A DNA stretch of 64,000 nucleotides, taken from Euglena gracilis (lineage: Eukaryota). Below are positions 43,963 to 62,050 of the stretch, piece after piece. The stretch spans positions 11,340,716 to 11,404,715 of the forward strand of contig CP154954.1 in assembly GCA_039621445.1 (NCBI GenBank). The letters are read 5' to 3'. Numbering within the stretch: the first letter of the stretch is position 1; every line of letters starts with the position of its first letter. The notes under the pieces were generated by a model. The model was not told where the DNA came from. It worked only from the letters and a program-made list of their open reading frames with translations, and ran no database searches. A program made the translations under genes and the position numbers.

Positions 43963-46444
43963 TGACCGACCCTTCGGGGGTGGTTAAAAATTGTATGGTC
44001 CAGAAAGTCGCCAAAATTTTTTTGGGGTTTGTGAAAAATCCCCCCTGTTGACCCAAAAGTGGGCAACAGCCAGCTTTGCGGCAGGCCTGCGCACGAAAGA
44101 CGCAGGCAAACACTGAAACTTCCCCGAGTGGCAGGTGGTGCGCAGATGGTTCAGGCAGACAGCATTCCCGGACCATCCCCTCCCCTTTTGGTCGGCCCTG
44201 GTCGGCCCTGGTCGGCAAATAGTCGGCCGTAGGTGGAAAAAATGTGCAGGGATGCAATGATTTTCTGAATTGTCTCGCCAAGATCAAAAGGAAATGCCCC
44301 ATAAGGCCTGCATTGGTTGGCTCCCAAAAAGCAACCAAAATGACCAAAAATGGCTTGAAACAAAAATTTCCCAAAAACGCCAACAAAATACACAAAAGAC
44401 TTTGAAAATGACCCAAAATTACCAAAAGAGCGCAAAATGGCCAAAAAAAATACCATAAAAAAGGCCATATTGGCCCAAATTAGCCGAATATTTGCCAAAT
44501 CAGTGACAAATAGCCCCCAAATAAGCAAAAACTGATCCATAACGGCCAAAGTTGGTGTAAAACTGGCGATTTGTGAGAAAATTATCTAAAAATGGGTTTA
44601 GTCCTTCAAAATATACGAAAAAAATACCGGCATCACCCAGCATCGCCCAGCATCGGAACCCCACCTGGACTCCAAAAATCGGCATCACCCAGCATCGCCC
44701 AGCATCATCAGAGGTGCTTTATCCAGGGGGGAAGCTGCCGAATTCCTTCATCCATTCCCCTTCGGTCGGCCAACCAAATGCAAGTCGGCCCTAGTCGGAA
44801 CCCCCACCTACGGGGGTACTGAAAATCATAGTCGCCCCCTGGTCGGCCGTGGGTGCCTGTCGGTGTCCCCTCCTCCCTTTTCGGTTTGCCTCGAGGGCCT
44901 TTTGGGCCGAATTTAGCCGGCGGTGGTTGGCCCAAATTGCCCCTGCGGTCCCCCCCCAGTCTATGTGAAGTGGTGAAGTGGTGGAAACCAAAATACCCAG
45001 CAGACAAATATGCGACGGCCATTTTTTCCCATTCTGCTCGGCGAGCTTGCGGTGTAAACCGGGGACCCGCCAGCCTCCCCAATATCCTCACCAGTCTGTG
45101 CCCCCCCCCATTTTCCAGGAGGTCCCGAACAGACATTCATTTAGTGTGGTTCACAAAAGACGTGTGAACCACAAATTTTTTTCTGGTGTCCACAGGTGAA
45201 CCACAAATTTTTTTTTGGTGTCCACAGGTGAACCACAAAAAAATTTCTGGTGTCCACAGGTGAACCACAAAAATTTTTGTGGTGTCCACAAAAAAATTTG
45301 TGGGCCACAAAAATTGATTGAGGATCGAAAAAAAATTACACCTAAAGGCGGATTGATCTTTAGACACCTCAGCCACTTTCGGGGCCTACGGCAGCAGAAA
45401 AAAACGCTTTTTTTTGTCGGTTCCTACTGTTCATGTATTTCTTGGTTTGATTTGATTGGTTTTGTGGATTACTAGAATTCGAAAGTAAATTGGCCTTCTT
45501 AGGTCTGTTTTCGACTGTATAGGTGAAATCAGAACCTCTTCAAAAAAAATGAAAACTATGACCCTTTTTTGGAAGTGGCCTCTTCTGTTTTTAGAGCACC
45601 AGAATTTTTGGTCAACTCACGCCGCCTGAGTCAAACATGTTCTATAAGAAAAATCGTGATTGAACCCCGATTTTGGCTTAAAAACGTTACCCAAATTCAC
45701 GGGCTTCCCCACAGTACCTAGCGGTTCCTAACGAGATCCCTATCAGCCAAAAATCGCGTTTTTAGCATTCACTAGTGAACTTTGGGCATTCACTAGTGCG
45801 CTATAGTGCACTAGTGAATGGCCACTTTTGATCATTAGTGCCCACGTGTGAAGGGAACATATCACTAGTGCGCACGTGTTCTCTGGTGATTGGAATCCGA
45901 ATTTTTTTATTATGTTTTTTTACCCTCCAATCTTTTTCCCTCACAGTCCAATGAAGCGTTTTGCCAACGTGATGGAAGCTCAGATGCCCCACCCCCCAAA
46001 TGTAGATGATTTTTTGACTGTCTTACGTGGTGCTGGGTCCCTGGGAGCCACAGTAGTGGATGCCCTTTTGGGCTCCCTCCCCACCGGTGGTGAAAATGAA
46101 GCCCTAGGCCCAAGAACCATGCTGCGTTGAAATGTTTTTTGGAGTACATTGATGTTTGCAACCGGCATGGCGTTATTTTTGCCTCTTTGGAAGAAGTTTT
46201 GGTGGGATGGGCCAGATGGTGCATTGATGCTTGCGAACTTTTTAAAACGCAGCAGGAAGCTGATGCCTGGGCCAAAACAAGGCAGGAGAAGGCTGGAAAA
46301 GATGGCCGCCTTCGATTCATGCCAGTGTCCAGTTTTCAGACATATTTAAATGCTGTGAGCAACATTTACTATAAGAAAAATCGGGGTTCAATCACGTTTC
46401 CCGGTGCGGAAACGGGGGGCGCCGAAAGGCGTGGGTTTGTTCGG

Positions 46445-49400
46445 GACACCTCGGGCTTCGCACTTTGCCCTTGTGAGGCCATGCCTTGCTCGCCGGCGGT
46501 GTTGTTTGGATTCTTTGCTGCGTTGGGTTAGGAGTCCCTGCTTAGTGCCTTTTTTCGCCGGAGTTGGCTGATTCCTAATTTGCCCTTCGACACCCAGAAG
46601 AATCAATCAATTCAAATTATCCAGAAAGTCACGCTCGTGCACAAACTCAAATCAAAAGTTGTTGAATGTTCGAAAGAGTTCAAGGAGAGATGCAACTTCA
46701 AAGAAGCACAGTGCGGGAGAACTTCAAGAGGCAGCAGCAGCAGCTGGACAACCTGACGACGCGGGTCGACTGTGGCGAACCGTGGCTGCCCCTGCCCCAA
46801 AAGAAATTTTCCCCACAGAAATTTCCAACACCCAAACCCCCCAAAGTGATGGCCACGGACCCTGGCAGACAGTGGTCAGAAGACCCCGCAAGGGGCAGAG
46901 ACAACAACCAGCTGGCCTCTACGGCCATTGGAACCAGGGCCATGGCGGCCATCGGTTCAAAACACACAATACATTCATGCGGAGCTATGGCAGCCAAAAC
47001 CGCGCAGGCCATGACGGCACAACTGGCCATGACGGCATCTACAGCATCAAAAGTCGCTGGAACAAAGGCCAAGGTGGCCACCAGCACCAGGGCCCCACAG
47101 GACATGGCAGGGGCAGAAAACGTCAAACACCCCCCCCCCACCCTTTCTCATTCATATCACCCCTCAGGGGTCAAGGGTGGGGCCCCAAGAACCCCTCCAG
47201 ATTTCAAATGGGCATGGCGACCCAGAACCGAATCAGGCCATTGGGGCCTTTATCATCAAGGCCACTGGGGCCAGAAAATTCAACAAGAAGATCAGAAATT
47301 ACAACAAAGCCACAAGGGGGGTCCTTCACAGGCCCCCCAGAAGCTAATGGTCAGCCCTGCAAGGGCTTTGTACTTAAATGGGCAGCCCCCTGCCCAGCCC
47401 CAGGAGGAAGATTGCCCCCCAGGGGCCAGCTGGCAACAGGAAGGGGGAGACTCCCCACCAGCATTTATTCAATCAAAAAGGGGGGACCCTCAGAGGCCCC
47501 CCTATGGTATGGCTACCAACCCCATCAACATCAAGCAGACCAGATAGGCCAAACAGGGGCAGTAAGCCTTATGGTATGTATTCCAACAACAAGATGCTCC
47601 AGAGAGAGAGTGAGAAGAGAGGAGAGTGCATGCACACACCCCCAGGAACATTTACTTTTTCCAAGGGCTCAAGCCCTAGGGGCTATAAGGAAATGTCCAA
47701 CACCCCCCACCCAGCCCCTAAACAATCATCTGATTCAGGAAATAAATTCCATGGAGGAAAAATGGGGAGATACCCTCCTGTACCAGAGACTTCAGAAAAG
47801 TCTAAAATGGTGGTCAAAAAATGCCCCCCCCCCAGCAACATGTCAATTAATCAAAAATGGAATTCAACCCCCCTGGGTAAATCCCCCAAAATTGTCCACA
47901 CACCCAAAGCCCAGAGCCAATCTGGAGCTGAACCAGGCAGAAAAAATTCTGCTGGATTACGAAAAAACTGGGTCAATAAAACGATTTTGGGATTCAGAAT
48001 CCCTGCATTTAATCCCATGGTTTCTAATTTCGAAACCAGAGGGGGGAAGAACAAAATGGAGAATTATCAGCGACTGAAGAGAAATAAATTAGCAGTTTCA
48101 AGCAAAACCTTTCAAGCTGGATCATATCCAGCACATTTTCCCAGTTTTGGAAAAAGGCCACTGGGCAGCAAAAATAGACCTCAAGGATGCCTATTTCCAT
48201 ATTCCATTAAGTCCTGGCCTAAGGCCATTTTTAAGGCATCAGGTAGGGGGGCAGACCTGGGAATTTCAAACAGGCTGCTTTGGGCTAAATGTAATGCCCC
48301 AAATTTTCATGTCAGTAATGAAGACATTCGAAAAACTGTGGAGAAAAAGGGGCATCCAGGTCTTTAATTACCTGGACGACATTTTACTGGTGGCCCCCAC
48401 CCAAAACATTTTGCAAAGTCACCTGAACAGAGTTGTCACAGATTTGCTGGATTCTGGGTTCCAAATCAATGTGAAAAAGTCTACCCTGCAGCCCACCCAA
48501 GTGGTAACCCACCTGGGTTTTCAACTGAACTTCCAGGAAGGAAAGTTACAAGTGCCCCCCCAGAAAGTCAAAACTATAAAAAAGTAGAAAAAAGGAGCTG
48601 GGAAAAATCGTGAAAAAGATTACATGTCAAAAAGGCAGTTGGCTGCCATTTTGGGTCAAATAAGATGCAATCTAATGGCCCTGCCCTTTTTAAGGGCTTT
48701 TACAGACACCCTGGCAAATTTTTTGGTGGCAAAGTCCACAGCCCCCTGGGAGTCAAAGCACCCCATTTCCCAGGAAATCAAGGCCCAATTAAGGGAAATA
48801 AAAACTCTATTGGACACCTGGGGGGGCAGACCCTTCCCCCAAAATGCAACCAGGGAGTTGCACTCAGACAGCAGCACCCATGCCTGGGGGGGGGGGCTGG
48901 ACATCCACACAGGAGAAATTGTGCAGGAATTTTGGAGAAAAGACTCCATTTTACACATCAATGCAAAGGAGCTCAGTGCAGCAATAAACACTGTGAAAAG
49001 TTTGAGCGAACCTGGAGAAACAGTTTCTTTGTCTGTGGACAACCAGGTAATCTACTATTACCTAACAAAAGGGGGGGCAGAAAAGACCCCTTCAACAAAA
49101 TGCTAAGACCATTTTTCAAATGGTGCATGGAGCACCAAGTAAACCTCCAAGTCAACTGGGTGCCTTCAAAGGAATGCCTAGCAGACCCCATAAGCAGATT
49201 GGAAATGGACAGGGGGGATTATTCTTTAGACCCCCAACTTTTTCAATGGTTAAGACAGCAATTCCAAAATTTCATAAATCTGGAAACAGATTTATTTGCC
49301 TCCCCAGGCAACAAAAAACTGCCCAATTTTGTGGTCAGGTGGCCCCATTGGGAGGGCACAGCAGTAAATGCACTACAATGTCCACTGGACAACATGGGGG

Positions 49401-50970
49401 ACCTTTATGCAAACCCCCCCTGGTCAATAATCCAAAAATTTCTGCCCAGGTTGAAGATGTTTCCCCAGACCAAAGTTTTGATGGTCACCCCCTACTGGGA
49501 TTCAGCCACATGGTGGCCCCAATTAATAAAAATGAAAGTGCCAGGGACCCCCTGCCTGAAAATCACCCCCTACAGGGGTATGTTCACCAAATGCAGGGGG
49601 GAACAAATGCCACCCCCCAGGTGGCCCCTACTTTGCATGATTTGCTCAGGCAAATTTTAGAGGGGAAACAAATTCAGGTTAAAACCATTGAAGATTTCCT
49701 GGGGAGAAACCCCAGTTTAAAACGTTATCAGAGTGCTTTTGCACTTCTGTGGGTAATTTTGGAACACATGGGGGTGCCCCCCCCCTGAAGTCACCACTGA
49801 CCAAGTGGCTGACGCTTTAATACAATTATTCCAATTTTCAAAGGCCCAAGCCCGTAATGCATACAGTGCAATGCTTTTGATTCCTGGGTTTGGTGGACTG
49901 AGATTCCACACCCTGTTAACCCCCTACAAGAGGCTTTGGAACCAAAACCTGGAGAAGTATGGGGCATTTTGGGATCCCCTCCCAATCCTCCTGGGGCTGG
50001 CCAAGACACCTATGCCCACTGATATTTGTACATTGCGTACCCAGCTGATTTTTTGCTCACGAATTCTCTGTTTATATCAATCCTCTGACTTGGCACAAGT
50101 CAAACGAACCACCAGTGTGTTGGGTAGGGCACCCTACATCAAAATTAAGCGTAAAGGGCAAAAATTTCACAAGTGGGAGAGGGTTGTGTCCATAGCCCAG
50201 TGTCCCCAAATAAGCCCATTTCATTTAATGATGTGTTATGTGGCTGCCACACGTTCATTCGTCAGACCTGGGGGCCCCCTCTTGATTTCATTAAAACCCC
50301 CCTTCAGAGCCATAAGTGCAGACACTGTTGCTTCTATCACAAAAGATTTTTTGGCCAAACATGGGGTGAATCCCCAGGTGTGGGGGGCCCACTCCACCAG
50401 AGGGGCAGGATTTGGTTTACTCAAAAAATTGGGCCTTTCTGCCCAAGAAGTTTGTGAAATTGGCCAGTGGAGGGGGGTGGAGGCTTTTACAGCCCACTAT
50501 CAACGACTGGGTGCCCAAGGTGCCCTGGAAAACGCCCTGGCCCCCCTAATTTCAGTGCACAATCTGGCCTCACAAGGGCAAAGTGCGAAGCCCGAGGTGT
50601 CTCGTACTCCCTCGAAGAAAACCGACCAGGGAGGAAGGGACACCGAGGGCGAAGCACAAAGACCTTGTGAGCCCGACCCCCCCCACCCGTAAAAGAAAAT
50701 TTGTCTTCAAAAGCCCTCGGTCAGAGAGTGGGGGCCAGGGGGGGGGGAGAGGGGGGGGACCCCCCCCAGGGGCAAGAAGTCACGTCGCCAAGTCGGAGCA
50801 GCATCGTCAGCCAACTCCGGCGAGGCGGCACTAAGCAGGGACTCCTAACCCAACGCAGCAAAAACAATCCAAACAACACCGCCGGCGAGCAAGGCGTGGC
50901 CTCACAAGGTCTTTGTGCTTCGCCCTCGGTGTCCCTTCCTCCCTGGTCGGTTTTCCTCGAGGGAGTACGA
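46445..50970 (+). mobile_element. DIRS1-type tyrosine-recombinase retrotransposon, family A, decayed
   Basis: RT (KIDLKDAYFH, YLDD), RNase H, MTase (NPPW) and YR (HSTRG; first R mutated to Q) broken by stops and frameshifts. ITRs and ICR (~50565-50672); ends GACACC...GTACGA. Confidence 0.93.
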
Positions 50971-51383
50971 GTTGCCGTTGAGTTCTGCTGTTTGTTGTCC
51001 ATTAACCATGCCAAGAATGGCATCGCGAGCATGTCTTAGGCGGCGCGAATTGCCCAAATTTTTTGCGATTTTTTGCACGCTTGGGGTGCGCGGGTTTCCG
51101 TTTACGAAACTCACTGTTATGTGCTCGAAATTTTGAGAGGATGGCACCAGCACGAAAATTTGGGTCGTTAAGGGTCCATTTTAGGCATTTTGACAAAGTG
51201 GCGGTATTGAGAATGGTTGTTTTAGGGGGGGTTTTGGAAAACACCCCCCTGGAACGCCCTCAAATTTTGAAAAAGCAGAAAACGGTGGGAGAACACCTGG
51301 CCTCCAGAGCCCCGGTTATTTGGTGAGGCTATCGGACCCCCCCTTTGGAGGGGGGGGCGACACGGTGTTGCAGTGTCTCGCAC

Positions 51384-54300
51384 TCGGACTACCACGACAG
51401 AGGAAGGGGGAGGAAGCGACCAAGAGGGCGAAGCACAAGAAGATGGTGAGGTCCTGCTTTCCTTGCCGGCTGTTCTGTTCTGGTGTGTTTGTGCGTGCGC
51501 GGGGGGTGCTTCTTACTGCGCCGTTGTTGCCGGAGTTGGCGATGATGAGGCCTCGTCCGACACCTTGACGAAGTGGAACCGTCGTGGCCCCGCCCCCCCC
51601 CCCCTCACGCATGGTTGCTTGGTGGGCCCCCCCCCTTGATGGGGATGGTTTTCTCTTTCTGGTGTGTTTCTGGGTGGGTGGTTGGGGCTGCTTGGTTGGG
51701 GGTCCCCTTTCTGGTTGGGGTGTTTTTCGTTTTCTGCTGATTTTTTGGGTGGGGGGGTTGGGCTCACCATCTTCTTGTGCTTCGCCCTCTTGGTCCCTTC
51801 CTCCCCCATCCTGTGTCGTGGGAGTCCGAGACCATTCGGGCTCCGCACTGCGAGATGGTGAGGTACTGTGCACCCCCCTTTGGGCCATAATTTTTTGAAT
51901 TTTTGAAACGACACCCAGTCTCAAGTAATGCGCTTGGAAGGCCCCAAATTTTTCCACTGGCCCAGCTGCTGGACTTCTTCCACTTGTAAACCAGCATTTT
52001 TCCACCATAAAATCCCCGCCCCTCTGGTGCTGTGGGGTTTCCAGTGGGTGGTGTCCACCCCCCCCCTCTTGCAGAATTTCTCTGGTAAGGGAATTCACCC
52101 TTTCTGATGTCAAAGGTCGTTTACCATCCAAAGACCACAATAAATTATTTTTGTGCCCAACCATGTGGGCTGTCCTTTCCACATACTCTTTCAACAAATT
52201 CCAGGGGCTTATGAGGGGTGTGTGTGGCAAATTCAAAATTTCCTCCCATCTTGGGAATTACCACCCTTTCCTTTGCAATAAAATGAAATTTTTTTCTCTC
52301 ACGAAACTGATTTTTCGCTGTGTCCTGGCTAGATCAACCCCCCTGTGGAGGGCCAGCAGCCTCCAACAGATGATGAGTCTGTTTCTGAGCTGTTTCACAG
52401 ATAGGTCTGAGAGAGGTTTGAAATTTCTCATGATGCTTTCCAGGAAATCAGAGGGGCCCCAAAAGTGGGCATACTTGCAGACATTGGAATTCCATTTCCT
52501 TTTCAATGGAGCCAGAAGAGGTGAAAATCTCAATGACCCAAACCCTGGGAGTAATATGGCTGCTGAATATGCATTTCGTGCAGTATTGATGCTATGAACA
52601 GCAAGATCAAGGATGGCTTCAGCCATCCTGTGGACTGTGCAGTCCTGCAGGGGCACCCCTTTGTGAAACAACTGGCCCACCAATGCCCTGAAGGCTGAGT
52701 CATATCTTTTGACATTTCCCAGATTTTTTATGTAAGTGTCGAAACTGGACATCGAAACTTCCTGGGATTGTAATATTTGCCTGACACAATCAAGCAGGCC
52801 AAATTACACCTTGGGGGGGGCATCTCCTCCCCCCAGCAGTTGGTGAACAGACCCCATTGGGGGGGTACCAGCAAAACTCTGCTGCCTGGCTGCCTGATTG
52901 ACATTAATTGGCGCCACCATGATGTCGAAGCCCAGTGGGGTACGATCAACAGACAAATCAGGTCTGGGTTTAACATCAGTCTCTGAACCCATTGGGGAAT
53001 GATGCTCCAGGGGGGGGTTTGCATAAAATGGGGGGAGGCCCCTCAAATCTGCCTTTAAGGTATCCACCAGTAAAGCCCCTTGGTGGGGGTATCGACAAAC
53101 AAACTGGGGGAATTTTTTGTTGCTGGGTGTGCAAAACATGTCCACCTCTGGGGTTATATCCTTTCTGAAAAATTGAAGAATGTGGTGAAAGATGTTCAGG
53201 TTGAGGGTGTAATCCCCTGGATCCTTTTGCTCCCTGGTCAGGGAGTCTGCCAATTGCTCTGTTGTTGGAACCCAAAGCACCTGCAAATTGATTTGTTTTT
53301 CCTGGCAATGATACAACAGGGGTTTTAGGATGGAATTTAGGTATGGCTTTTTTCCTCCCCATTTTGTCAGATAACTGACAGCCACCTGGCTGTCCACATG
53401 AAGCACAATCGTTTGCTTTGGTTTGGCCAGAGATTTTACAGTTTCCACTGCAGCCTGCAACTCTTTTTGATTGATATGAAGGACATGCAGGTCCCTCCAA
53501 AAATCTTGCACCTTTTGGCCTGAATCTTTGTCCAGCCCCCCCCACTGCCAGGTGCTGCTGTCTGAAAAGAGTGTTTGGGAGGCCTGGGATTGAAATGCTC
53601 TGCCCACGCCTGGCTGCAAAAAAGCCTTTAACTCCACAATTTGATCTTTGACCCCTTGGGGAATGGTCAGGGTGTGGTCCCAACCCCACTTTGTATGTAG
53701 ATCCACCATTTTGCAAAGTTGATCTGTCAGAATTCTGAGAAATGGCATTGAAACTAAATAGCTTCTGACTTGTCCCACAATAGAACTGAGTTTTCTGCAG
53801 CTCATTTTTTGTGCTGTGAGTACTTTGCCAAGCTCCTTTCTTAAGGATTTTAGTTTTTTCCTGAGTAATTTCCAGCTGGCCTTTTTTCAAATTGATCCAT
53901 TGGCCCAAATGCTTTATTTCCTGTTTGGGTTCCAGACAGGATTTGGGGAGGTTTAATCTGAAATCTGCCAGTAAAAGGTCTGTCTTTACCTCTGCAAATG
54001 TTGGGCTGCTGTCTTTTTGCTGGGGGCTAACAGTAAAATGTCGTCCAGGTAGATGAAAACTACCTTTCCTTCCTTTCTCCATTTTCTTTCCCAGACTCTC
54101 ATGAGTGTCATAAATTTCTGTGGCAGGCTGCTTATACCAAAGCATGCAGCTTGAAATTGCCAAGTTTCCCCCCCCACCTGCATGCAAACATGTTTTTCCA
54201 GGCTGCTGTGCAGTTTTAGGTGAAAATAAGCATCTTTCAGGTCTATTTTCCCACAGAACCACCCTTTTCTTAAGTATGGGAAAATGTTTCCCATGTGTTC

Positions 54301-56502
54301 CAGTCTGAACTTCTGGGGGTTGAAATACTGATTTAACTGTCGACAATCTGAAATTAGTCTTTCCTTTGTCGTTTCCCCTTCCTTTTTGGAAATGATGAAA
54401 TAGGGGACAAAATGTTTTGCCTCCTCTGGGGTGATTTGCCTGGTTGCCCATGCACATTCGTATTCTCTCAGAATTTTTTGGGCAGTCATTATTTCCTGGG
54501 GGGTTTTGAAGGGAACTTTTAAGGACATTTGAGGGGGGAGGGGAAGATCTGCCATAAACCCTTCCCTTATCAGGTTTAATACCTCTCTGCTGGCTCCTGC
54601 CTTTTCCCAATGGGGGATACTGGCCTGCAGGGCTCTGAAAGGGGGTACCCCTGGGTGTAATGTGTCTGGGGATTTCACAGGCCCCGTCACTGGGGGCCTT
54701 CCCCCTGGCTGCCCCATCACTGGGGTCCCCTCTGGCTGCCCCATCACTGGGGTCATCTCTGGCCCTGCCATAGGGCTGCTCAATGACAGGCTTTCCCCCT
54801 GTTTCTGAAAGATGGGGGAAGGTCTGTGGTGGGGAGGTACATATAATGCTGGGGGGTGAGGGCTGATTATCTTCTGGGGGGGCCCTGGTGTAGCCAATCT
54901 TGGGCCTCCCCCCCAAGGGCTGATATCTTGAATGGACTGGCCTCCAGTGGCCACCTGAATTTGCTTGAAATGGCCTCCATTGGCCTTGATATCTTGATTG
55001 TAATGGCCTCCATTGGCCTTCAGGGCCATCTGGCCTTCTTGGTCTCCATTGACCTTCTCTCCAGCACTTTTCTTTCTTTTTCCCTCTTGGTTCCCCAGAT
55101 AAGCCACCATGGCTGAATTTCCCTGGGGGTTTCGATGCCACCTGTCTTGGCTGTGGCTTGCTTCCCCTGGGGGGAATGATTTTGAGGGTTCTGGGGGGAT
55201 AGTTGGACATACCTCTCCCCACTGGGGTCGCCTGCTGGGATTCTGGGTTCTGTGTCTTTGAAATTGGGCACCATGCCCTTTTGAATGATGGCTGCCATAG
55301 CCTTGGGCCCCAGGCCTTGTAGATGGATTGCCGCCATGGCCATTTTGAGGAGGGTGTCCCCCTTCCTGACTTGAACCCTTTGAACTTGTCATATTTCCCC
55401 TGCCATAGGGGTGGGGATGAGAAGGGGGATGGGTAGTCTGCCAGACCTGTTTTTCCCTCTCCTGACAATGTTTCCTTGATTGATGACTGTGATGGGTCCC
55501 CATGACCCAATGGGCCTTGCCCTGGATGGCTTCTCCGTCGCTTTGCTCTGACCACAAGTGTCCAGGGTCCATGGCCGTCACAAAAGTTTTGTTGAAAACA
55601 GGAAATATCTGACGAACTGGGGGGCGGAAGGGTTGCGACGGCCACGGACGGACGTGTTGGCCCTGCTCCATCAGGTACTCCAGTGCCTGCAGTTCCTCGG
55701 TGTTTCCCAGCTTCGGCTGTCTGTCTGGAGCTTCCTTGTGTTCCCACTTCCTCTTGACAGCTTGAAATTTTTTCCAACACATCTTTCATTGAATTCCGTT
55801 GAACACGTGTTTGATTTTTTGAATGTCTTTGTCTTCCGTATTGACCGCACTCGTAGAGTTGAAATTCTTTTTTCCTTGAGGTCGAAGGGCAGAAATAGGA
55901 ATCAGCCAACTCCGGCAACAAAAAGCAGTAAGAAGCACCCCCCGCGCACGCACAAACACACCAGAGCAGAGCAGCCGGCAAGGAAAGCAGGACCTCACCC
56001 ATACATCTCTCTAAGGACCCCGGGGGGGGGGTTGCTGGGCTAGGGCTAGAAATTTGGGCTAGCTAGAAATTTGGGCTAGCTAGCCCCCCCCCCCCCCCCG
56101 GGGGGGGGGGGCTGGACCCCGGCTGGACCCGAACTGGGGCGAGCTGGACTGAAATCGGAAAAATGCCCAAAAATGACCTGCAAAACACAGTTTTGAAAAA
56201 ATGATGCATCTGAAACCCCCCAAAAATGCCCCAAACACCCCCCAAACCCCATTTTTGGCCACTTTTGAACACATTTTTTCAAAATTTTTCGGCGCTTTGC
56301 GCCGAAAAATTTTGGGCTGGACCCCCAAAAAAGGGGCTGGCTAGCTGGGCTAGCAGCACCCCCCCCCCCCCAGGGGGGGTGCTGCTGCGGCTGGGCTGGG
56401 CCCAAATCGGGGCTGGCTGCAGCAGCCCCCCCCGGGGGGGGTTCGCAAAACCTTAGAGAGATGTATGACCTCACCATCTCGCAGTGCGGAGCCCGAATGG
56501 TC
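51384..56502 (-). mobile_element. DIRS1-type retrotransposon, family B, decayed
   Basis: ORF 53986-55782 RT (KIDLKDAYFH, YLDD); 52804-53805 RNase H/MTase; 52258-52752 YR (LHRGVDL). ICR at ~51762-51863 is complementary to both termini. The 5' terminus is split by a MITE. Confidence 0.92.
56000..56467. mobile_element. hAT-like MITE inserted in the 5' terminal repeat of DIRS family B
   Basis: TIRs CATACATCTCTCTAAGG / CCTTAGAGAGATGTATG; TSD ACCTCACC at 55992-55999 and 56468-56475. Confidence 0.9.
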
Positions 56503-56783
56503 TGAAAATTTCCGACACCTCGGGCTCCGCACTTTGCCATTGTGAGGCCATGCCTTGCTCGCCGGCGGTGTTGTGTGATTGTTCGTTACGCTGGGTTAGG
56601 CGTCTCCCCTTAGTGCCTTTCTTCGCCGGAGTTGGCTGATTCCTAATCTTGCCCTTCGACACGGAAGAAGACAGAAACTTTGAAGAACAGAGTTGGAAGA
56701 GATCAAGACAATACAATATCAATATTCAGAACTTGTAGAACCTGAAGAATATCACATTCAAGAAAATATTTCAACTTTGACAT

Positions 56784-59700
56784 TTGAAGTCAATGCAGCA
56801 TGTGGAGAACAAATTGGAATTATCCAGTCGACAACCTGGACGCAGTGCAGAACAAGAAACGCCAGCTGGAGAACGTGGAGATGCGGTTTCAACGTGGCGA
56901 ACCGTGGCCATCACTCCCCCCCCACACATCTCAGCAGAAAAAATTTTTCAGCAGCAGACAGCCACACACAGTGATGGCCATGGACCCTGGCAGACAGTGG
57001 GCAAAAAGCCCAGACGACAACGGAAGACATTGGGTACCAAGGGTCAAGACCCATTACATTTCAAATTGGGGTGCAGGAAACCTTCAAAATTGGCAGACCC
57101 AGCCCAGAGGGCAAAAGCCCCAACCCACAGGGCAAATGCCCCCAACCCATCGAGATGGAATAAAGGACAAGGGGGCCAGTACAACATTGGGAAGCCAGAT
57201 GGCCCAGTCTGGAGCAGAAGGCCAATCCAAGGGCTATGGCAGCCTACAGGAAGGGGCAAAAGAGGTCTGTACCAACCATCTTTTTCAAATTCAGCCCACA
57301 ACCCCATTCCAGGGGGGAGGGGGGAGGCCCAGCAACAGGGCTCCCCCAGACTTCAATTGGGCATGGCAAGAAGCCAGAACTTACAGCCCCGGCCATGGAG
57401 GCCAGAGCAAAAGGGGCTTGGGCCAAAGAGACCAATCCAAGGGCTATGGCAGCCATACAAGGGGTGGACCTCCAGAGGCCCCCCAGAAGCTAAAGGGCAG
57501 CCCCACAGGGGCTTTGTATTCAACACATGCCCAGCCCCAGGAGGAACAGGGGGAAGGGGAAGGACCCCCACAAGTATTTATTCATCATTCTTCAAATCCC
57601 CCAGTGGAATCAAGAAGGGGGGGACCCACAGAGGCCCCCCTATGGTATGGATACCAACACCATCATCATCAAGGAGGCCTGATAGGCAAAACAGGGGCAG
57701 TAAGCCCTATGGTATGCATTCCAACAACAAGATCCTCCAGAGAGAGAGTGAGAAGAGAGGAGAGTGCATGCACACCCCCCCAGGAAAACTTTCCCTTTCC
57801 AAGGGCTCAAGCCCTAGGGGCCCTAAGGGTGCAATGTCCAACACCCCCAGCCCAGCCCCCCCAAAATCATCTTATGCAGGAAATAAACTCCATGGAGGAG
57901 AAATGGGGAGACACCCCCCTGCATCAAAGGCTGCAAAAAAGCCTAAAATGGTGGAAAAATCATGCCACCCCAGCAACATGTCAACTCATCAGGGATGGCA
58001 TTCAACCCCCCTGGGTAAATCCCCCAAAATTGTCCACCCACCCAAAACCCAGAGCCAACCTGGACCTGAATCAGGCAGAAAAAATTCTGCTGGATTACGA
58101 AAAATCTGGGTCAATAAAACGAGTTTGGGATTCAAAAACCCTGCATTTAATCCCCTGGTTTCTAATTTCAAAACCAGAAGGGGGAACAACCAAATGGAGA
58201 ATGATCAGCGACTGCAGAGAAATCAATCAGCAGTTTCAAGTAAAACCTTTCAAGCTGGATCACATCCAGCACATTTTTCCTGTTTTGGAAAAAGGCCACT
58301 GGGCAGCCAAAATAGATTTAAAAGATGCCTACTTCCACATCCCAGTGAGCCAGGCCTTAAGGCCATTTTTAAGGCATCAAGTGGGGGGGCAGACCTGGGA
58401 ATTCCAGGCAGGCTGTTTTGGCCTAAATATAATGCCCCAAATTTTCATGTCAGTAATGAAGACATTCGAAAAACTGTGGAGAAAAAGGGGCATCCAGGTA
58501 TTTATTTACCTGGACGACATTTTACTGGTGGCCCCAACACAAAACATCTTACAAAATCACCTGAACACAGTCGTCAGGGATTTAATCAAATCAGGTTTCA
58601 AAATCAATGTGAAAAAGTCCACCCTCCAGCCCAGCCAAATCGTAAATCATCTTGGATTTCAACTAAACTTCCAAGAGGGAAAATTACAGGTGCCCCCCCA
58701 GAAAATAAAAACCGTAAAAAAGGAGCTGGGAAAAATGGTGAAAAAAGATTACATGTCAAAAAGGCAACTGGCTGCCATTTTGGGCCAAATCAGATGCAAT
58801 CTAATGGCCCTGCCCTTTCTAAGGGCCTTTACGGATGCCCTGGCAAATTTTTTGGTGGAAAATTCCACAGCCCCCTGGGACTCAAAACACCCCATTTCCC
58901 AAAGGATAAAGGATCAATTAAGGGAAATAAAAATTCTGCTGGACACCTGGGGGGGCAGACCCTTCCCTCAAAGTGCAACCAGAGAGTTGCACTCAGACAG
59001 CAGCACCCATGCCTGGGGGGGGCTGGACATTCGAACAGGCAACATTGTGCAGGAATTTTGGAGGGAAAACTCCATTTTGCACATAAACGTCAAAGAATTA
59101 AGTGCAGCAATAAGCACAGTACAAAGCCTAAGCAAACCAGGAGAAACTGTGTCCCTGTCAGTGGACAATCAAGTAATTTACTATTACTTAACAAAAGGGG
59201 GGGGCAGAAAAGACCCTTTCAATTCCATGCTAAGGCCCTTCTTCAAATGGTGCATGGAGCACCAAGTAAACCTGCAAGTAAAGTGGGTCCCCTCAAAAGA
59301 ATGCCTGGCAGACCCCATAAGCAGGTGGGAGATAGACAGGGGGGATTATTCCCTGGACCCCCAACTCTTTCAATGGCTGAGGCAGCAGTTCAAAAATTAC
59401 ATAGACCTGAAAACAGACCTTTTTGCCTCACCAGGCAACAAAAAAATGCCACAATTTGTGGCAAGGTGGCCCCACTGGGAAGCCACAGCAGTGGATGCAT
59501 TGCAATGCCCACTGGACAACATGGGGGGCCTTTATGCAAACCCCCCCTGGTCTGTCATTCAAAAATTTCTCCCCAGATTAAAAATGTTTCCACAAGCCAA
59601 AGTTTTGATGGTCACCCCCTACTGGGATTCAGCCACATGGTGGCCCCAGTTAATAAAAATGAAAGTTCCAGGGACCCCCTGCCTAAAAATCACCCCCTAC

Positions 59701-60962
59701 AGGGGTATGTTCACCAATTGCAGGGGGGAAAAAATGCCACCCCCCAGGTGGCCCCTCCTTTGCATGATTTGCTCAGGCAAATTTTGGAGGGGAAACAAAT
59801 ACAAAATTCAACCATTGAAGATTTCCTGGGAAGAAACCCCAGTTTAAAAAGGTACCAAAGTGCCTTTACCCTTTTATGGGTGATTCTGGACAGAATGGGG
59901 GTGCCCCCCCCTGAAGCCACCACTGACCAAGTGGCTGATGCTTTAATCCAACTTTTTCAATTTTCAAAGGCCCAAGCCCGTAATGCATACAGTGCTATGC
60001 TTTTGATCCCTGGGTTTGGTGGCCTAAGGTTTAATACCTTATTAGCACCTTACAAAAGGCTTTGGAACCAAAATCTGGAAAAATATGGTGCTTTCTGGGA
60101 CCCACTCCCAATCCTCCTGGGGCTGGCAAGGCAGCCTGTGCCCACTGATATTTGTGCATTGCGCACTCAGCTCATTTTTTGTTCACGCATCCTCTGTTTA
60201 TATCGTTCATCCGATTTGGCACAAGTCAAAAGAACCACAAGTGTGTTGGGGGGGGCACCCTACATTCAAATCAAACGTAAAGGACAAAAATTCCACAAGT
60301 GGGAAAGAGTTGTCTCAATTCCCCAATGTCCCCAAATCAGTCCCTTTCATTTGATTATGGCTTATGTGGCAGCCACACGGTTCTTTATGAAACCTGGGGG
60401 CCCCCTTTTGATAACGCTAAAACCCCCCTACAGAGCCATTAAGGCAGATACCATTGCTTCTATCACCAAAGAATTTTTGACCAAACAGGGGGTACCCCCC
60501 CAGGTGTGGGGACCCCACTCCACCAGAGGGGCAGGGGTTGGTTTGCTCAAAAAATTGGGCCTTTCTGCCCAAGAAGTTTGTGAAATTGGTCAGTGGAAGG
60601 GGGTGGAGGCTTTTACAGCCCATTATCAACGACTTGGTGCCCAAGGTGCCTTGGAAAATGCCCTGGCCCCCCTTTTTTCAGTGCACAATCTGGCCTCACA
60701 ATGGCAAAGTGCGGAGCCCGAGGTGTCTCGTACTCCCTCGAGGCAAACCGACAAGGGAGGAAGGGACACCGAGGGCGAAGCACAAAGACATTGTGAGCCC
60801 GACCCCCCCCTCCCATTGAAAAAATTTGTCTTCAAACGCCCTCGGTCAGCAAGTGGGGGCCAGGGGGGGGAACCCCCCCAGGGGAAGAGACAGCGCCACG
60901 GTCGCCACGTCGGAGACAAAGCAGCCAACTCCGGCGAGGTGGCACTAAGGGGAGACGCCTAA
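56784..60962 (+). CDS. Overlapping DIRS ORF with a C-terminal tyrosine recombinase; true start uncertain
   Basis: LYRSSDL (R), KRK (K), HSTRG (HxxR), GQW (W), HY (Y) in the last ~390 aa. Confidence 0.9.
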   Translation: MKSMQHVENKLELSSRQPGRSAEQETPAGERGDAVSTWRTVAITPPPHISAEKIFQQQTATHSDGHGPWQTVGKKPRRQRKTLGTKGQDPLHFKLGCRKPSKLADPAQRAKAPTHRANAPNPSRWNKGQGGQYNIGKPDGPVWSRRPIQGLWQPTGRGKRGLYQPSFSNSAHNPIPGGRGEAQQQGSPRLQLGMARSQNLQPRPWRPEQKGLGPKRPIQGLWQPYKGWTSRGPPEAKGQPHRGFVFNTCPAPGGTGGRGRTPTSIYSSFFKSPSGIKKGGTHRGPPMVWIPTPSSSRRPDRQNRGSKPYGMHSNNKILQRESEKRGECMHTPPGKLSLSKGSSPRGPKGAMSNTPSPAPPKSSYAGNKLHGGEMGRHPPASKAAKKPKMVEKSCHPSNMSTHQGWHSTPLGKSPKIVHPPKTQSQPGPESGRKNSAGLRKIWVNKTSLGFKNPAFNPLVSNFKTRRGNNQMENDQRLQRNQSAVSSKTFQAGSHPAHFSCFGKRPLGSQNRFKRCLLPHPSEPGLKAIFKASSGGADLGIPGRLFWPKYNAPNFHVSNEDIRKTVEKKGHPGIYLPGRHFTGGPNTKHLTKSPEHSRQGFNQIRFQNQCEKVHPPAQPNRKSSWISTKLPRGKITGAPPENKNRKKGAGKNGEKRLHVKKATGCHFGPNQMQSNGPALSKGLYGCPGKFFGGKFHSPLGLKTPHFPKDKGSIKGNKNSAGHLGGQTLPSKCNQRVALRQQHPCLGGAGHSNRQHCAGILEGKLHFAHKRQRIKCSNKHSTKPKQTRRNCVPVSGQSSNLLLLNKRGGQKRPFQFHAKALLQMVHGAPSKPASKVGPLKRMPGRPHKQVGDRQGGLFPGPPTLSMAEAAVQKLHRPENRPFCLTRQQKNATICGKVAPLGSHSSGCIAMPTGQHGGPLCKPPLVCHSKISPQIKNVSTSQSFDGHPLLGFSHMVAPVNKNESSRDPLPKNHPLQGYVHQLQGGKNATPQVAPPLHDLLRQILEGKQIQNSTIEDFLGRNPSLKRYQSAFTLLWVILDRMGVPPPEATTDQVADALIQLFQFSKAQARNAYSAMLLIPGFGGLRFNTLLAPYKRLWNQNLEKYGAFWDPLPILLGLARQPVPTDICALRTQLIFCSRILCLYRSSDLAQVKRTTSVLGGAPYIQIKRKGQKFHKWERVVSIPQCPQISPFHLIMAYVAATRFFMKPGGPLLITLKPPYRAIKADTIASITKEFLTKQGVPPQVWGPHSTRGAGVGLLKKLGLSAQEVCEIGQWKGVEAFTAHYQRLGAQGALENALAPLFSVHNLASQWQSAEPEVSRTPSRQTDKGGRDTEGEAQRHCEPDPPLPLKKFVFKRPRSASGGQGGEPPQGKRQRHGRHVGDKAANSGEVALRGDA
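56800..59847 (+). CDS. DIRS polyprotein: N-terminal region + reverse transcriptase + RNase H + N6-adenine methyltransferase
   Basis: KIDLKDAYFH, FGL, IYLDDIL, HLG; HSDSS/KEL/VDN/LAD RNase H; DLFA...YANPPW MTase. Confidence 0.93.
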   Translation: MWRTNWNYPVDNLDAVQNKKRQLENVEMRFQRGEPWPSLPPHTSQQKKFFSSRQPHTVMAMDPGRQWAKSPDDNGRHWVPRVKTHYISNWGAGNLQNWQTQPRGQKPQPTGQMPPTHRDGIKDKGASTTLGSQMAQSGAEGQSKGYGSLQEGAKEVCTNHLFQIQPTTPFQGGGGRPSNRAPPDFNWAWQEARTYSPGHGGQSKRGLGQRDQSKGYGSHTRGGPPEAPQKLKGSPTGALYSTHAQPQEEQGEGEGPPQVFIHHSSNPPVESRRGGPTEAPLWYGYQHHHHQGGLIGKTGAVSPMVCIPTTRSSRERVRREESACTPPQENFPFPRAQALGALRVQCPTPPAQPPQNHLMQEINSMEEKWGDTPLHQRLQKSLKWWKNHATPATCQLIRDGIQPPWVNPPKLSTHPKPRANLDLNQAEKILLDYEKSGSIKRVWDSKTLHLIPWFLISKPEGGTTKWRMISDCREINQQFQVKPFKLDHIQHIFPVLEKGHWAAKIDLKDAYFHIPVSQALRPFLRHQVGGQTWEFQAGCFGLNIMPQIFMSVMKTFEKLWRKRGIQVFIYLDDILLVAPTQNILQNHLNTVVRDLIKSGFKINVKKSTLQPSQIVNHLGFQLNFQEGKLQVPPQKIKTVKKELGKMVKKDYMSKRQLAAILGQIRCNLMALPFLRAFTDALANFLVENSTAPWDSKHPISQRIKDQLREIKILLDTWGGRPFPQSATRELHSDSSTHAWGGLDIRTGNIVQEFWRENSILHINVKELSAAISTVQSLSKPGETVSLSVDNQVIYYYLTKGGGRKDPFNSMLRPFFKWCMEHQVNLQVKWVPSKECLADPISRWEIDRGDYSLDPQLFQWLRQQFKNYIDLKTDLFASPGNKKMPQFVARWPHWEATAVDALQCPLDNMGGLYANPPWSVIQKFLPRLKMFPQAKVLMVTPYWDSATWWPQLIKMKVPGTPCLKITPYRGMFTNCRGEKMPPPRWPLLCMICSGKFWRGNKYKIQPLKISWEETPV

Positions 60963-62050
60963 CCCAGCGTAACGAACAATCACACAACACCGCCGGCGAG
61001 CAAGGCATGGCCTCACAATGTCTTTGTGCTTCGCCCTCGGTGTCCCTTCCTCCCTTGTCGGTTTGCCTCGAGGGAGTACGATTCGCCGTGCCAATTCAGC
61101 CATTTGCATTGCCTTTTTTGCTTATGACATGTTGAGGTCGGCCTCCTGCTCCAATTACATTGACGAAATTTCAGAATTTTTTTGGGCCACGATTCCTCGG
61201 TGAGCACCCGCAGGTGTTCGCTAGTGAACCATTCACTACTGCCGCAGTGTTGACTAGTGAATGGACCCCGATTCCTCACGTGGGGAAGCCCATGAATGGT
61301 TAACGTTTTTAAAGAAGATTGCTTCATTGCTGTTGATGAGAAAGAAAATGATGCAAATGTCAGCAGGCGGTGGAAAAAATTTTGGTGTCCACATGTGAAC
61401 CACAAATATTACTTTGGTGTCCACAGATGAACCACAAAAAATTTTTTTGGTGTCCACAAGTGAACCACAAAAAAATTTTTGGTGTCCACAGGTGAACCAC
61501 AAAATTTTTTGTGGTGCCCACAGTGAACCACAGAATGACAACCTTGGTGTACCACACTAAATGAATGTCTGGTCCCGAAAGGAAGCCCGACGCCGTCAGG
61601 CCTGTGGCCCGGCCCGGCGAGGCAAAAAATTGAGCAATTTCAAAAAAAATTGTACTTTGGACACTTTTGCAAAAATGTGGTGGCGTAAATTGGCCATATC
61701 TGCGAGGAATGGGGAAGAAAGCGTGGGATTGGACGGTGATTGCGCAATTTTTTGAGCCCAGCTTTGGCAAAATTGGCCATCCATCCAAACCAAAATACAG
61801 TCAGCTGGGCGAGCGCTCTAAGGGAGCTCAATTCAATGTTTTGAACCTTTTTGTTGAATTTTGCTTGACCTTCTGAAGATTTTTAAAGCGGCCAAAAAAT
61901 TGGCCAAAAAAGGCGTCGAAAAACGGGTTGAGGAAAGGTGGCGCTGGCCAAAACTTGATGAGCTCCTCCAAACGCTGGTCGACCAAAGGCCTGGCACCAG
62001 AAAATTGGCAGCGGTGACGTCGAGTGTGCGTGCAGACAATTCCACGGGGG

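What the first reader, a model, noticed from the sequence alone, without database searches (positions are those of the whole stretch)
45646..61312. Hidden tyrosine-recombinase DNA element with hairpin+TIR ends, reconstructed from four fragments
Seen: removing the three DIRS elements at their ICR-defined ends leaves ~1.45 kb bounded by ~33-bp inverted repeats. It holds a ~1.1-kb decayed gene with YR-like motifs in the right order (TYLNAV helix; LHAWGARVS; TENFLRRA; ISEF-LGHDSSVSTRRC). The first junction is in frame (GFVR|VAVE), and the NFLRR motif exists only after joining 51383|56503-56513|61082. No RT or DDE domain is visible. Known: Cryptons are YR-only DNA transposons but are described with short direct repeats, not TIRs. 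Inference: possibly an undescribed YR DNA-transposon type, and the candidate mobilizer of the hairpin+TIR elements at 12.6-18.3 kb. Its TAAAAACGT...ACGTTTTTA ends match the 12647-16048 element, and its hairpin starts AAAAATCGTG like the 16165 element.
Basis: partly seen in the sequence, partly recalled or inferred. Interest (0 to 1): 0.85.

Follow-up and report, generated by a model that had tools for sequence, protein, structure and literature searches.

The report
Truncated tyrosine-recombinase transposon relic

Summary
The nesting is real. Three DIRS retroelements (46445-50970 +, 51384-56502 -, 56514-61081 +) interrupt a ~1.46-kb element (45643-61312) bounded by a 33-35-nt inverted repeat. 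Contigs from three public runs join 46444 directly to 50971.

The "1.1-kb decayed YR gene" is only partly real. Window 45951-46369 encodes the first ~140 residues, with one frameshift, of a protein family whose full-length members are 395-512 aa. The closest homolog is 92% identical, and its 90% cluster contains a Euglena gracilis transcript. Homology stops exactly at 46369 (…AVSNIY). A family profile finds nothing for its positions 156-414 in the reconstruction or anywhere in the window. The motifs LHAWGARVS, TENFLRRA and LGHDSSVSTRRC are therefore chance; only TYLNAV (the family's SFRTYVNAV) is genuine.

The family itself does have a tyrosine-recombinase fold. Foldseek on an AlphaFold model returns Cre, Xer, IntI and Tn1549 Int, and R, K, R and Y are invariant.

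Two other decayed elements (12.6 kb and 16.2 kb) share the layout: TATA, hairpin, TIR, then the 5' gene fragment. In all three, the joined ends fold into one long palindrome.

Verdict: a non-autonomous relic of a probably undescribed, Crypton-like-by-enzyme but TIR/hairpin-ended YR transposon family. This copy could not mobilise anything.

The parts
45643..45677 (+). Left terminus of the hidden element: TATAAG, then a small hairpin (stem AAAATCG/CGATTTT with an 11-nt loop), then GGCT.
   Evidence: Sequence read. X11 contig record 9 from another copy starts matching exactly at 45643. The same TATA-plus-hairpin start occurs at 12653 and 16160.
45678..45712 (+). Left terminal inverted repeat (TTAAAAACGTTACCCAAATTCACGGGCTTCCCCAC).
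   Evidence: 35-nt alignment, 88.6%, to 61312-61280, E=1.2e-5; 0 chance matches.
45766..45875 (.). Subterminal palindromic CATTCACTAGTGAATG-type repeats. Matching copies lie at 61216-61264.
   Evidence: 45787-45820 self-complementary at 94%; several 9-12-nt exact copies at both ends. Their role as protein-binding sites is inference.
45951..46369 (+). Pseudogene fragment: the first ~140 codons of the recombinase family. ATG at 45951, a one-base deletion near 46109, end at ...AVSNIY.
   Evidence: 92% to P0003. (P0048 and P0049 begin MKRFANMMEAQMP...). (HMM positions 1-29 and 59-155, E=8e-35).
46370..46399 (+). Second, internal copy of the terminal TATAAGAAAAATCG plus hairpin, with the loop flipped. 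The preceding 9 nt (AACATTTAC) resemble the left flank (AACATGTTC).
   Evidence: 39 nt, 79.5%, direct. (20/20 in inverted orientation). (2 exact copies in the window; 0.38 matches at <=2 mismatches expected by chance).
46400..46444 (+). Non-coding body, part 1 (up to DIRS#1).
   Evidence: No family or Pfam similarity.
46445..50970 (+). DIRS#1 retroelement insertion.
   Evidence: I3, I8; 79-91% identical to DIRS#3 over long stretches. Sub-threshold Dam-like hit. Joint 46444->50971.
50971..51383 (+).
   Evidence: In-frame stops. No hit to the family HMM, to homologs or to Pfam.
51384..56502 (-). DIRS#2 retroelement insertion.
   Evidence: I2, I7. Ends read. RT-region similarity to DIRS#1 and #3 (I19, I22).
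56503..56513 (+). 11-nt remnant of the host element between DIRS#2 and DIRS#3.
   Evidence: with the ends fixed by the ICR junctions.
56514..61081 (+). DIRS#3 retroelement insertion: RT, Dam-like region and DIRS-type YR in overlapping frames.
   Evidence: (RVT_1 E=2.4e-23; Dam 0.0023, sub-threshold). (I1, I4).
61082..61279 (+).
61280..61312 (-). Right terminal inverted repeat. The exact last base (61310-61313) is not fixed.
45130..45642 (+). Left part of the host element: a hAT-like MITE with TIR CAGACATTCATTTAGTGTGG, 32-nt subterminal tandem repeats and an 8-bp TSD GTCCCGAA at 45122-45129.
   Evidence: (D2). (2 exact matches; 0.02 expected).
61313..61571 (+). Right part of the same MITE. The TSD copy lies at 61572-61579.
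12653..16047 (+). Sister element ('12.6 kb'). It has a 140-nt perfect hairpin, a TIR (12800-12833 / 16000-16033, 100%), subterminal repeats, a decayed 5' recombinase fragment (13082-13485) and a PHD-finger ORF. It is inserted in a MITE that has an intact paralog at 15232-15480.
   Evidence: (I1, I11). (HMM positions 1-29 and 41-123)..
16160..17381 (+). Sister element ('16.2 kb'). It has a 105-nt hairpin, a TIR (16290-16324 / 17333-17367, 91%) and a very decayed 5' gene fragment starting MAKKAAN.
   Evidence: (I7, I16). (HMM positions 13-69, E=2.8e-4)..

Best explanation
WHAT IT IS. Window 45643-61312 is one non-autonomous, dead copy of a DNA-transposon family of a Euglena-like genome. Without the three DIRS it is about 1.46 kb. 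Autonomous members of the family should encode a ~400-510-aa, Cre-fold tyrosine recombinase.

WHAT THE COPY KEEPS.
- Both ends. The left end is TATAAG, a small hairpin and a ~34-nt TIR. The right end is the matching TIR.
- Palindromic subterminal repeats.
- A polypyrimidine-CAG tract upstream of the ATG.
- Only the first ~140 codons of the recombinase gene (45951-46369), with one frameshift.

WHAT IT LACKS. The catalytic domain is missing.

HISTORY. The copy sits inside a hAT-like MITE and was later hit by three DIRS retroelements.

MECHANISM (inferred, not shown).
1. Full-length recombinase supplied in trans excises such elements as circles.
2. In the circle, the right TIR, the hairpin and the left TIR form one long palindrome, which serves as the recombination site.
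3. Strand exchange occurs at the edge between the right TIR and the hairpin.
4. Integration occurs without a target-site duplication, into sites whose left half resembles the element's right terminus. This is a Crypton-like microhomology.
For: SHOWN.
1. Gene fragment. 45951-46369 is 92% identical to P0003 (E=5.9e-48). It matches family HMM positions 1-29 and 59-155. P0048 and P0049, from the same 90% cluster, start with the same MKRFAN...; P0049 is a Euglena gracilis transcript.
2. Missing catalytic domain. Nothing downstream matches the family. Other copies diverge exactly at 46369 (record 11).
3. Recombinase fold of the family. The AlphaFold model of P0032 has pLDDT 76.6. Foldseek against the PDB gives 38 hits at E<=1e-3, and all 28 listed rows are tyrosine recombinases (Cre 2.3e-5, XerA, XerH, IntI, Tn1549 Int). 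R234, K267, D358, R361, R362 and Y392 are invariant in 10 full-length members. The nearest ESM-Atlas clusters carry Phage_integrase.
4. Shared architecture. All 3 elements of this type in the window have TATA, hairpin, TIR, subterminal repeats and then the 5' gene fragment in the same orientation, although their sequences have diverged.
5. Palindromic joined ends. Joined right and left ends fold into one continuous palindrome in 3 of 3 elements, with z = -9.4, -34 and -21 against shuffles.
6. Multi-copy, uninterrupted form. The left boundary at 45643 and the joint 46444->50971 are seen in contigs from other copies.
7. Empty-site comparison with the MITE paralog at 15232-15480. The 12.6-kb element sits at CATGTTTTT^AACC. 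Its left flank CATGTTTTT matches its own right terminus CACGTTTTT at 8 of 9 positions. The hidden element's flank AACATGTTC matches its terminus AACGTTTTT at 6 of 9 (read by eye).
8. No RT or DDE domain in any ORF scanned.
Against: - No full-length copy with its flanks could be examined. The link between the intact gene and these ends rests on three truncated copies.
- Sequence-level support for a YR is weak. Pfam Phage_integrase is only sub-threshold, in 3 of 8 members (13.9-15.8 bits against a cut-off of 27.1). The PDB profile search gave 0 hits at E<=10. PHROGs gave no integrase family.
- The first conserved His of the YR pentad is Asp/Lys here.
- Foldseek TM-scores are modest (0.44 query-normalised, 0.57 target-normalised).
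- The no-TSD claim is soft. At the 12.6-kb site, TTTTT lies on both sides and could be a 5-bp duplication. At the 16.2-kb site, the right flank is only 13 nt before another insertion (10 of 14 matches by eye), and there the flank/terminus similarity is 3 of 9.
- The internal second hairpin copy at 46370 is not explained by a simple deletion.
- The joint 46444->50971 has only 20 nt on its shorter side.
Confidence: 0.68

Rival explanations
1. One reading: the four fragments together are one complete, decayed ~1.1-kb tyrosine-recombinase gene, with box I, HxxR and Tyr motifs in order.
For: The motif-like strings do occur in the stated order, and one of them appears only after the DIRS are removed. 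TYLNAV is genuinely the family's SFRTYVNAV motif.
Against: The 92%-identical homolog continues KALAPVFAIIVPSS... after NIY, not YKKNRGS.... The family HMM finds no match for positions 156-414, even with --max and E<=10. tblastn with three homologs is negative. The stretch has five in-frame stops plus a frameshift.
Confidence: 0.03
2. The hidden element is a composite of two family members. A second element integrated at the gene-internal pseudo-target AACATTTAC^AAG of a full-length element. The outer left end and the inner right end were then used together, giving L1 - gene 5' part - L2 - body2 - R2. This composite spread as a non-autonomous family. This is a variant of the best explanation that concerns origin only.
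For: A second TATAAGAAAAATCG-plus-hairpin lies exactly where gene homology stops. The 9 nt before it resemble both the left flank and the right terminus (6 of 9 each, by eye). The A-tail|B junction is present in other copies.
Against: No left TIR follows the internal hairpin, and the loop is flipped. An internal deletion with filler DNA copied from the terminus would give the same picture.
Confidence: 0.3
3. The hairpin-plus-TIR elements are moved by an unrelated enzyme encoded elsewhere (a DDE or HUH transposase). On this view the recombinase-gene fragment is captured or passenger DNA.
For: TIRs and subterminal repeats are classic cut-and-paste features. TTTTT on both sides of the 12.6-kb element could be a 5-bp TSD. 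No intact recombinase lies in the window.
Against: Three diverged elements keep the same gene fragment at the same place and in the same orientation next to the left end, so ends and gene have diverged together. No DDE or HUH domain was found. No TSD is evident at the hidden element or the 16.2-kb element.
Confidence: 0.15
4. The break at 46369|46370 is an intron of the euglenid nonconventional type, and the gene continues downstream.
For: The organism is Euglena-like. Euglenid nonconventional introns lack GT-AG and are thought to derive from TIR elements (passages of PMC11282704). The homologs are transcript-derived.
Against: No downstream exon exists anywhere in the 64-kb window. The element's right TIR closes it at 61312.
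Confidence: 0.03

Closest known systems
Crypton DNA transposons (tyrosine-recombinase-only, eukaryotic)
   Same: Both are DNA elements whose only recognisable enzyme is a tyrosine recombinase, with no RT. No clear target-site duplication is seen. The left flank resembles the element's right terminus in 2 of 3 elements, like the short terminal direct repeats or target microhomology described for Cryptons (passages of PMC3212892 and PMC13465315).
   Different: Cryptons are described as lacking TIRs. These elements have 33-50-nt TIRs, subterminal repeats and a hairpin of up to 140 nt at one end. No DUF3504 or GCR1_C domain was detected. The phylogenetic position relative to CryptonF, S, A and I was not tested because no reference sequences were available. 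Additional file 1 of PMC3212892, which lists the termini, could not be seen.
DIRS retroelements (the three inserts in this same locus)
   Same: Both encode a tyrosine recombinase, and in both the inverted terminal sequences are thought to define a circular-junction recombination site.
   Different: The hidden element has no RT, RNase H or methyltransferase. Profile comparison of the family with the window's own DIRS recombinase shows no similarity (hhalign probability 0.07%).
Cre/lox, and the folded-hairpin substrates of integron integrases (IntI-attC)
   Same: The fold matches Cre, Xer and IntI. The inferred site is two inverted arms around a central region, and a hairpin-forming substrate recalls attC. 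The attC comparison is recalled knowledge, not tested here.
   Different: The palindrome is 100-240 nt rather than 34 nt. The inferred exchange point lies at one edge, not in a 6-8-bp central spacer. No biochemical data exist.
Starship and Tec elements (tyrosine-recombinase elements that can have TIRs)
   Same: Both are tyrosine-recombinase-associated DNA elements in which TIRs occur (passage of PMC13465315 for Starships; Tec is recalled).
   Different: Starships are giant fungal elements whose 'captain' carries DUF3435, and no such Pfam hit was found here. Tec elements also carry a DDE transposase (recalled). The elements here are 1-3.5 kb, in a euglenid-like genome.

Membership tests
Tyrosine recombinase superfamily (the protein family of full-length homologs) | Two-domain Cre/Xer-like fold | tested here: met
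   AlphaFold model of P0032, pLDDT 76.6. Foldseek against the PDB: 38 hits at E<=1e-3, and all 28 listed rows are tyrosine recombinases.
Tyrosine recombinase superfamily (the protein family of full-length homologs) | Catalytic R...K...HxxR...H/W...Y residues conserved | tested here: inconclusive
   R234, K267, R361/R362 and Y392 are invariant in 10 of 10 members. The first His position is Asp358/Lys357, and the second His/Trp is not conserved. Assignment is by motif order and the model's secondary structure, not by superposition.
Tyrosine recombinase superfamily (the protein family of full-length homologs) | Pfam Phage_integrase (PF00589) above the gathering score | tested here: not met
   Sub-threshold hits in 3 of 8 members only (13.9-15.8 bits against 27.1).
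Tyrosine recombinase (the window's own copy, 45646-61312) | Catalytic domain present, even if decayed | tested here: not met
   Only HMM positions 1-29 and 59-155 match. tblastn is negative for the rest.
Crypton | DNA element encoding a YR and no RT or DDE | tested here: inconclusive
   No RT or DDE in the ORFs of the three window elements. All three are truncated, and no full-length element was available.
Crypton | No TIRs; 4-6-bp terminal direct repeats | tested here: not met
   TIRs of 33-35 nt (88.6% over the 35-nt alignment), 34 nt (100%) and 35 nt (91%) plus terminal hairpins. Flank/terminus similarity is present in 2 of 3 elements.
Crypton | YR groups with CryptonF/S/A/I in a tree, or carries DUF3504/GCR1_C | tested here: inconclusive
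   No DUF3504 or GCR1_C hit at E<=1 in 8 members. No tree was built because no Crypton reference sequences were available.
DIRS | RT/RNase H with a DIRS-type YR and ITR plus ICR | tested here: not met
   No RT. hhalign against the window's DIRS YR gives probability 0.07%.
Starship | Captain YR with DUF3435 | tested here: not met
   No DUF3435 hit.
hAT superfamily (outer host MITE only) | 8-bp TSD and short TIRs | tested here: met
   GTCCCGAA at 45122-45129 and 61572-61579. 20-nt perfect TIR. No transposase is present, so the superfamily assignment is by TSD length only.

The most novel reading that the evidence does not exclude
Euglenids harbour a so-far-undescribed superfamily of tyrosine-recombinase DNA transposons. 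Unlike Cryptons, these have TIRs and a terminal hairpin. Their joined ends form a long palindromic recombination site cut at one edge, and they integrate without a target duplication into sites resembling their own right terminus. Because they are abundant, end-pairing and often land inside genes, they or their non-autonomous derivatives could be one source of euglenid nonconventional introns.
Probability: 0.35. Interest if true: 0.75.

Novelty: new variant of a known kind. Interest (0 to 1): 0.55.

Why it matters
Tyrosine-recombinase DNA transposons of eukaryotes (Cryptons) are poorly understood. Their ends are hard to define, and no excision or integration site has been characterised. This family has sharply defined ends: TIRs, a hairpin and a palindromic joined-end site. 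It also has an expressed, unannotated Cre-fold recombinase. Together these would give a tractable system for eukaryotic YR transposition.

It would also add a mobile-element class to Euglena. That genome is very repeat-rich, and its odd introns are suspected to come from TIR elements with no known transposase.

The specific copy in this window has no function of its own. It is useful only as a marker of the family and of the order of insertions: MITE first, then the YR element, then three DIRS.

Tried and rejected
- Whole-genome search of the window's own assembly: no genome is held.
- The search for related loci with P0003 and with alignment A1 in metagenome contigs, and with A1 in viral contigs: no loci. 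The flanks of full-length genes therefore could not be read.
- Pfam on the 7 fragment translations: only noise (DUF6415 at 0.15, DUF3085 at 0.1).
- Pfam on P0003: no family.
- PDB sequence-profile search with A1: 0 hits at E<=10.
- PHROGs on 10 full-length members: no integrase family, only two weak 'DNA binding protein' hits.
- hhalign of A1 against the window's DIRS recombinase: no similarity.
- tblastx of the reconstruction against the window: only a weak N-terminal match to the 12.6-kb element (E=0.085). The profile search later made this match significant.
- Rfam on the whole window: 0 families.
- Earlier-findings look-ups by place, sequence and words: nothing.
- The look-up of sequencing runs: no RNA holder listed. 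RNA raw reads of X24 give depth 0-1.4 over the gene fragment, which is no evidence either way on expression.
- Considered and rejected: an intron at 46370, because there is no downstream exon.
- Considered and rejected: that the TATACAAAAAATCG matches at 30957 and 31267 are the same family. They lie in a different palindromic repeat.
Full report
SETTING. The window is eukaryotic and packed with nested repeats. A protein in the same 90%-identity cluster as the best homolog of the finding's gene is named by its source as a Euglena gracilis transcript. The organism is therefore most likely E. gracilis or a close relative. No whole genome is held for the window.

THE NESTING IS REAL.
- Three DIRS-type retroelements occupy 46445-50970 (+), 51384-56502 (-) and 56514-61081 (+).
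- Each has inverted termini and an internal complementary region whose junction fixes both ends to the base. See (I3, I4, I7, I1, I2, I8) and the sequences read.
- DIRS#3 carries RVT_1 (E=2.4e-23), a sub-threshold Dam-like region and a DIRS-type recombinase in an overlapping frame.
- Contigs of public runs were laid on 45300-51500. The joint 46444->50971 appears in X1, X2 and X11 (one contig each, 20 nt on the shorter side). A 46442-AG-50971 variant appears in X1 and X2. Copies of the host element without DIRS#1 therefore exist.
- The other two junctions rest on the ICR logic only.

THE ENDS ARE REAL.
- 45678-45712 and 61312-61280 align over 35 nt at 88.6% (E=1.2e-5). The left 34-mer has no chance match in 100 shuffles.
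- A contig from another copy begins matching exactly at 45643 (record 9).
- Both ends carry palindromic CACTAGTG-type subterminal repeats.
- The element lies inside a hAT-like MITE at 45130-61571. That MITE has a perfect 20-nt TIR (2 matches against 0.02 expected) and an 8-bp TSD, GTCCCGAA.

THE GENE IS ONLY ONE THIRD REAL.
- The ORF piece 46100-46444 finds P0003 at 92% identity, E=5.9e-48.
- With P0048 and P0049 the reading is as follows. The ATG is at 45951 (MKRFANVMEAQMP...), a one-base deletion lies near 46109, and the frame then runs to ...SSFQTYLNAVSNIY at 46369.
- There the homolog continues KALAPVFAIIVPSS..., whereas the window continues YKKNRGS....
- A ~90%-identical contig also stops matching at exactly 46369 (record 11).
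- Residues 106-259 of P0003 have no match anywhere in the 64 kb: the only hits over those residues have E>=4.6 and look unrelated. The C-terminal halves of P0004 and P0005 have none at E<=5.
- A 414-position HMM of 13 family members was run with all filters off at E<=10. It hits only positions 1-29 and 59-155 of the reconstruction.
- The stretch holding LHAWGARVS, TENFLRRA and LGHDSSVSTRRC has five in-frame stops and a frameshift. It bears no resemblance to the family's true motifs. Those three motifs are chance; TYLNAV is the family's SFRTYVNAV.

THE FAMILY IS A TYROSINE RECOMBINASE BY FOLD.
- An exhaustive phmmer search with the 115-aa piece found 44 proteins at E<=1e-3.
- Word-indexed searches found full-length members of 395-512 aa. 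All are unnamed or 'hypothetical', and one is filed under Genlisea aurea.
- Sequence methods barely see an integrase. Pfam Phage_integrase is sub-threshold in 3 of 8 members. The PDB profile search found nothing. PHROGs found nothing relevant.
- An AlphaFold model of P0032 (pLDDT 76.6) gives 38 Foldseek hits at E<=1e-3. All 28 listed rows are tyrosine recombinases: Cre, Tre, XerA, XerH, IntI and Tn1549 Int.
- In 10 full-length members, R234 (TGxRxE), K267 (MKN), D358, R361, R362 (FKDVxRR) and Y392 (VYH) are invariant.
- The first His of the canonical set is replaced, and the second is not conserved.
- ESM-Atlas neighbours are eukaryotic clusters carrying Phage_integrase or ALOG.
- The family is not close to the DIRS recombinases of the same window (hhalign probability 0.07%).

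A FAMILY OF ELEMENTS.
- Two more elements in the window, at 12653-16047 and 16160-17381, have the same plan: TATA, then a perfect hairpin (140 and 105 nt), a TIR, subterminal repeats, a polypyrimidine-CAG tract, and a decayed 5' fragment of the same gene family. That fragment matches HMM positions 1-29 and 41-123, and 13-69, respectively.
- The first also has a PHD-finger ORF (sub-threshold, E=0.002-0.003).
- None has an RT or DDE domain.
- Ends and gene fragments have diverged together. This argues that the gene is the elements' own.
- When right and left ends are joined, as in a circle, all three fold into one continuous palindrome. MFE is -33, -151 and -113 kcal/mol, with z = -9.4, -34 and -21.
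- On its own, the hidden element's hairpin is weak (z = -1.6).

INSERTION SITES.
- The 12.6-kb and 16.2-kb elements sit in a MITE that has an intact paralog at 15232-15480.
- The first site is CATGTTTTT^AACC. TTTTT stands on both sides, so it could be a 5-bp duplication or part of the TIR. Because the TIR of all three elements includes AAAAACG, I read it as part of the TIR. This remains ambiguous.
- On that reading, the left flank (CATGTTTTT) repeats the element's right terminus (CACGTTTTT) at 8 of 9 positions.
- For the hidden element the flank/terminus match is 6 of 9 (AACATGTTC against AACGTTTTT).
- For the 16.2-kb element it is 3 of 9, with no duplication, but only 13 nt of flank are readable.
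- This pattern resembles the short terminal direct repeats or microhomology reported for Cryptons (passages of PMC3212892 and PMC13465315). The support is suggestive only.

UNEXPLAINED.
- Exactly where gene homology stops (46370) lies a second copy of TATAAGAAAAATCG plus the hairpin. It matches 20 of 20 in inverted orientation, that is, with the loop flipped.
- It is preceded by AACATTTAC, which resembles both the left flank and the right terminus.
- There are two possible origins. One is a nested self-insertion followed by mobilisation of the outer left end with the inner right end. The other is an internal deletion with filler DNA copied from the terminus.
- The absence of a TIR after the internal hairpin fits neither neatly.

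COMPARISON WITH KNOWN FAMILIES. By enzyme and by lack of RT, the closest known kind is Crypton. However, a defining Crypton trait (no TIRs) is not met, and no DUF3504 or GCR1_C domain is present. The elements are not DIRS, not Starships (no DUF3435), and too small and simple for Tec.

LITERATURE.
- A search for 'Euglena' with 'tyrosine recombinase' returned 6 papers. A search for 'Euglena gracilis' with 'transposable elements', 'genome assembly' and 'DIRS' returned 2. None describes such elements, judging by title and abstract listing.
- Of PMC3212892, PMC13465315 and PMC11282704 I read only passages.
- The Crypton paper's additional file listing the termini could not be seen.

VERDICT. The family behind it is probably a new variant of YR DNA transposon.

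Noticed in passing
45122-45642 and 61313-61579: The host of the hidden element is a ~770-bp hAT-like MITE with termini CAG...CTG, an 8-bp TSD (GTCCCGAA) and four to five 32-nt subterminal repeats (GGTGTCCACAGGTGAACCAC...). According to a passage of PMC11282704, euglenid nonconventional introns have CAG at +4 to +6 and CTG at -8 to -6. That spacing (3 + 5 = 8) is what an element with CAG...CTG termini plus one 8-bp TSD copy would give. This is my own inference and is untested.
   Followed up: partly
15232-15480; also 12528-12652 with 16048-16159: Two paralogous copies of a MITE with ~35-nt TIRs ending in GGGTTAA/TTAACCC and a central 50-nt hairpin. One copy is intact. The other is split by the 12.6-kb element and abutted by the 16.2-kb element. 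This gives in-window empty and filled sites.
   Followed up: yes
56781-60962 and 56788-59847: DIRS#3 has two very long overlapping open frames of 1393 and 1019 codons. One holds RT (RVT_1) and a sub-threshold Dam-like adenine methyltransferase region; the other holds the DIRS recombinase at its end. A 2026 preprint (10.64898/2026.05.21.726589, seen as listing and abstract only) reports adenine methyltransferases in eukaryotic retrotransposons; its search listing counts many occurrences of 'DIRS' and 'Euglena' in the text.
   Followed up: partly
51384-56513: DIRS#2 and DIRS#3 inserted only 11 nt apart and in opposite orientation. Contigs also show DIRS head-to-tail or circle-like joints (50970->46475).
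   Followed up: no
13440-13721: A PHD-finger-like ORF (CGFCG...HFHC...CKAC; Pfam PHD E=0.003, sub-threshold) lies downstream of the truncated recombinase fragment in the 12.6-kb element. A similar ...H..C...WVCHSC tail ends the ORF of the 16.2-kb element (about 17000-17046). None of the full-length homologs fetched shows a PHD finger.
   Followed up: partly
30500-31400 (minus strand): Two tandem ~310-nt repeat units, then a long palindrome centred on CAGCAGGGGCGCCGGGCGCCCCTGCT. Each unit starts with TATACAAAAAATCG, which is similar to the left-end motif of the YR elements, but the rest is unrelated.
   Followed up: no
13951-14060, 14758-14881, 17395-17485, 18190-18310: Many short, perfect or near-perfect palindromic (foldback) MITE-like units built on CCGAACCGGCGTTCCAGAACGCCGGTTCGG or GACGCCGGTTCTGTCC motifs. 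Some are inserted inside the YR elements.
   Followed up: no
50743-50772, 51210-51250, 51336-51360, 56425-56445: Recurrent G-run/C-run mini-palindromes (for example GGGGGGGGACCCCCCCC and CCCCCCCGGGGGGGG) occur inside DIRS and in the hidden element's body.
   Followed up: no
12464-12509 and 62625-62797: TTAGGG-like degenerate repeats (GGGTTAGGGTCAGGG) lie next to the MITE at 12.5 kb. A 9-10-nt tandem array (GCGGAAAATT, at least 17 units) lies at 62.6 kb.
   Followed up: no
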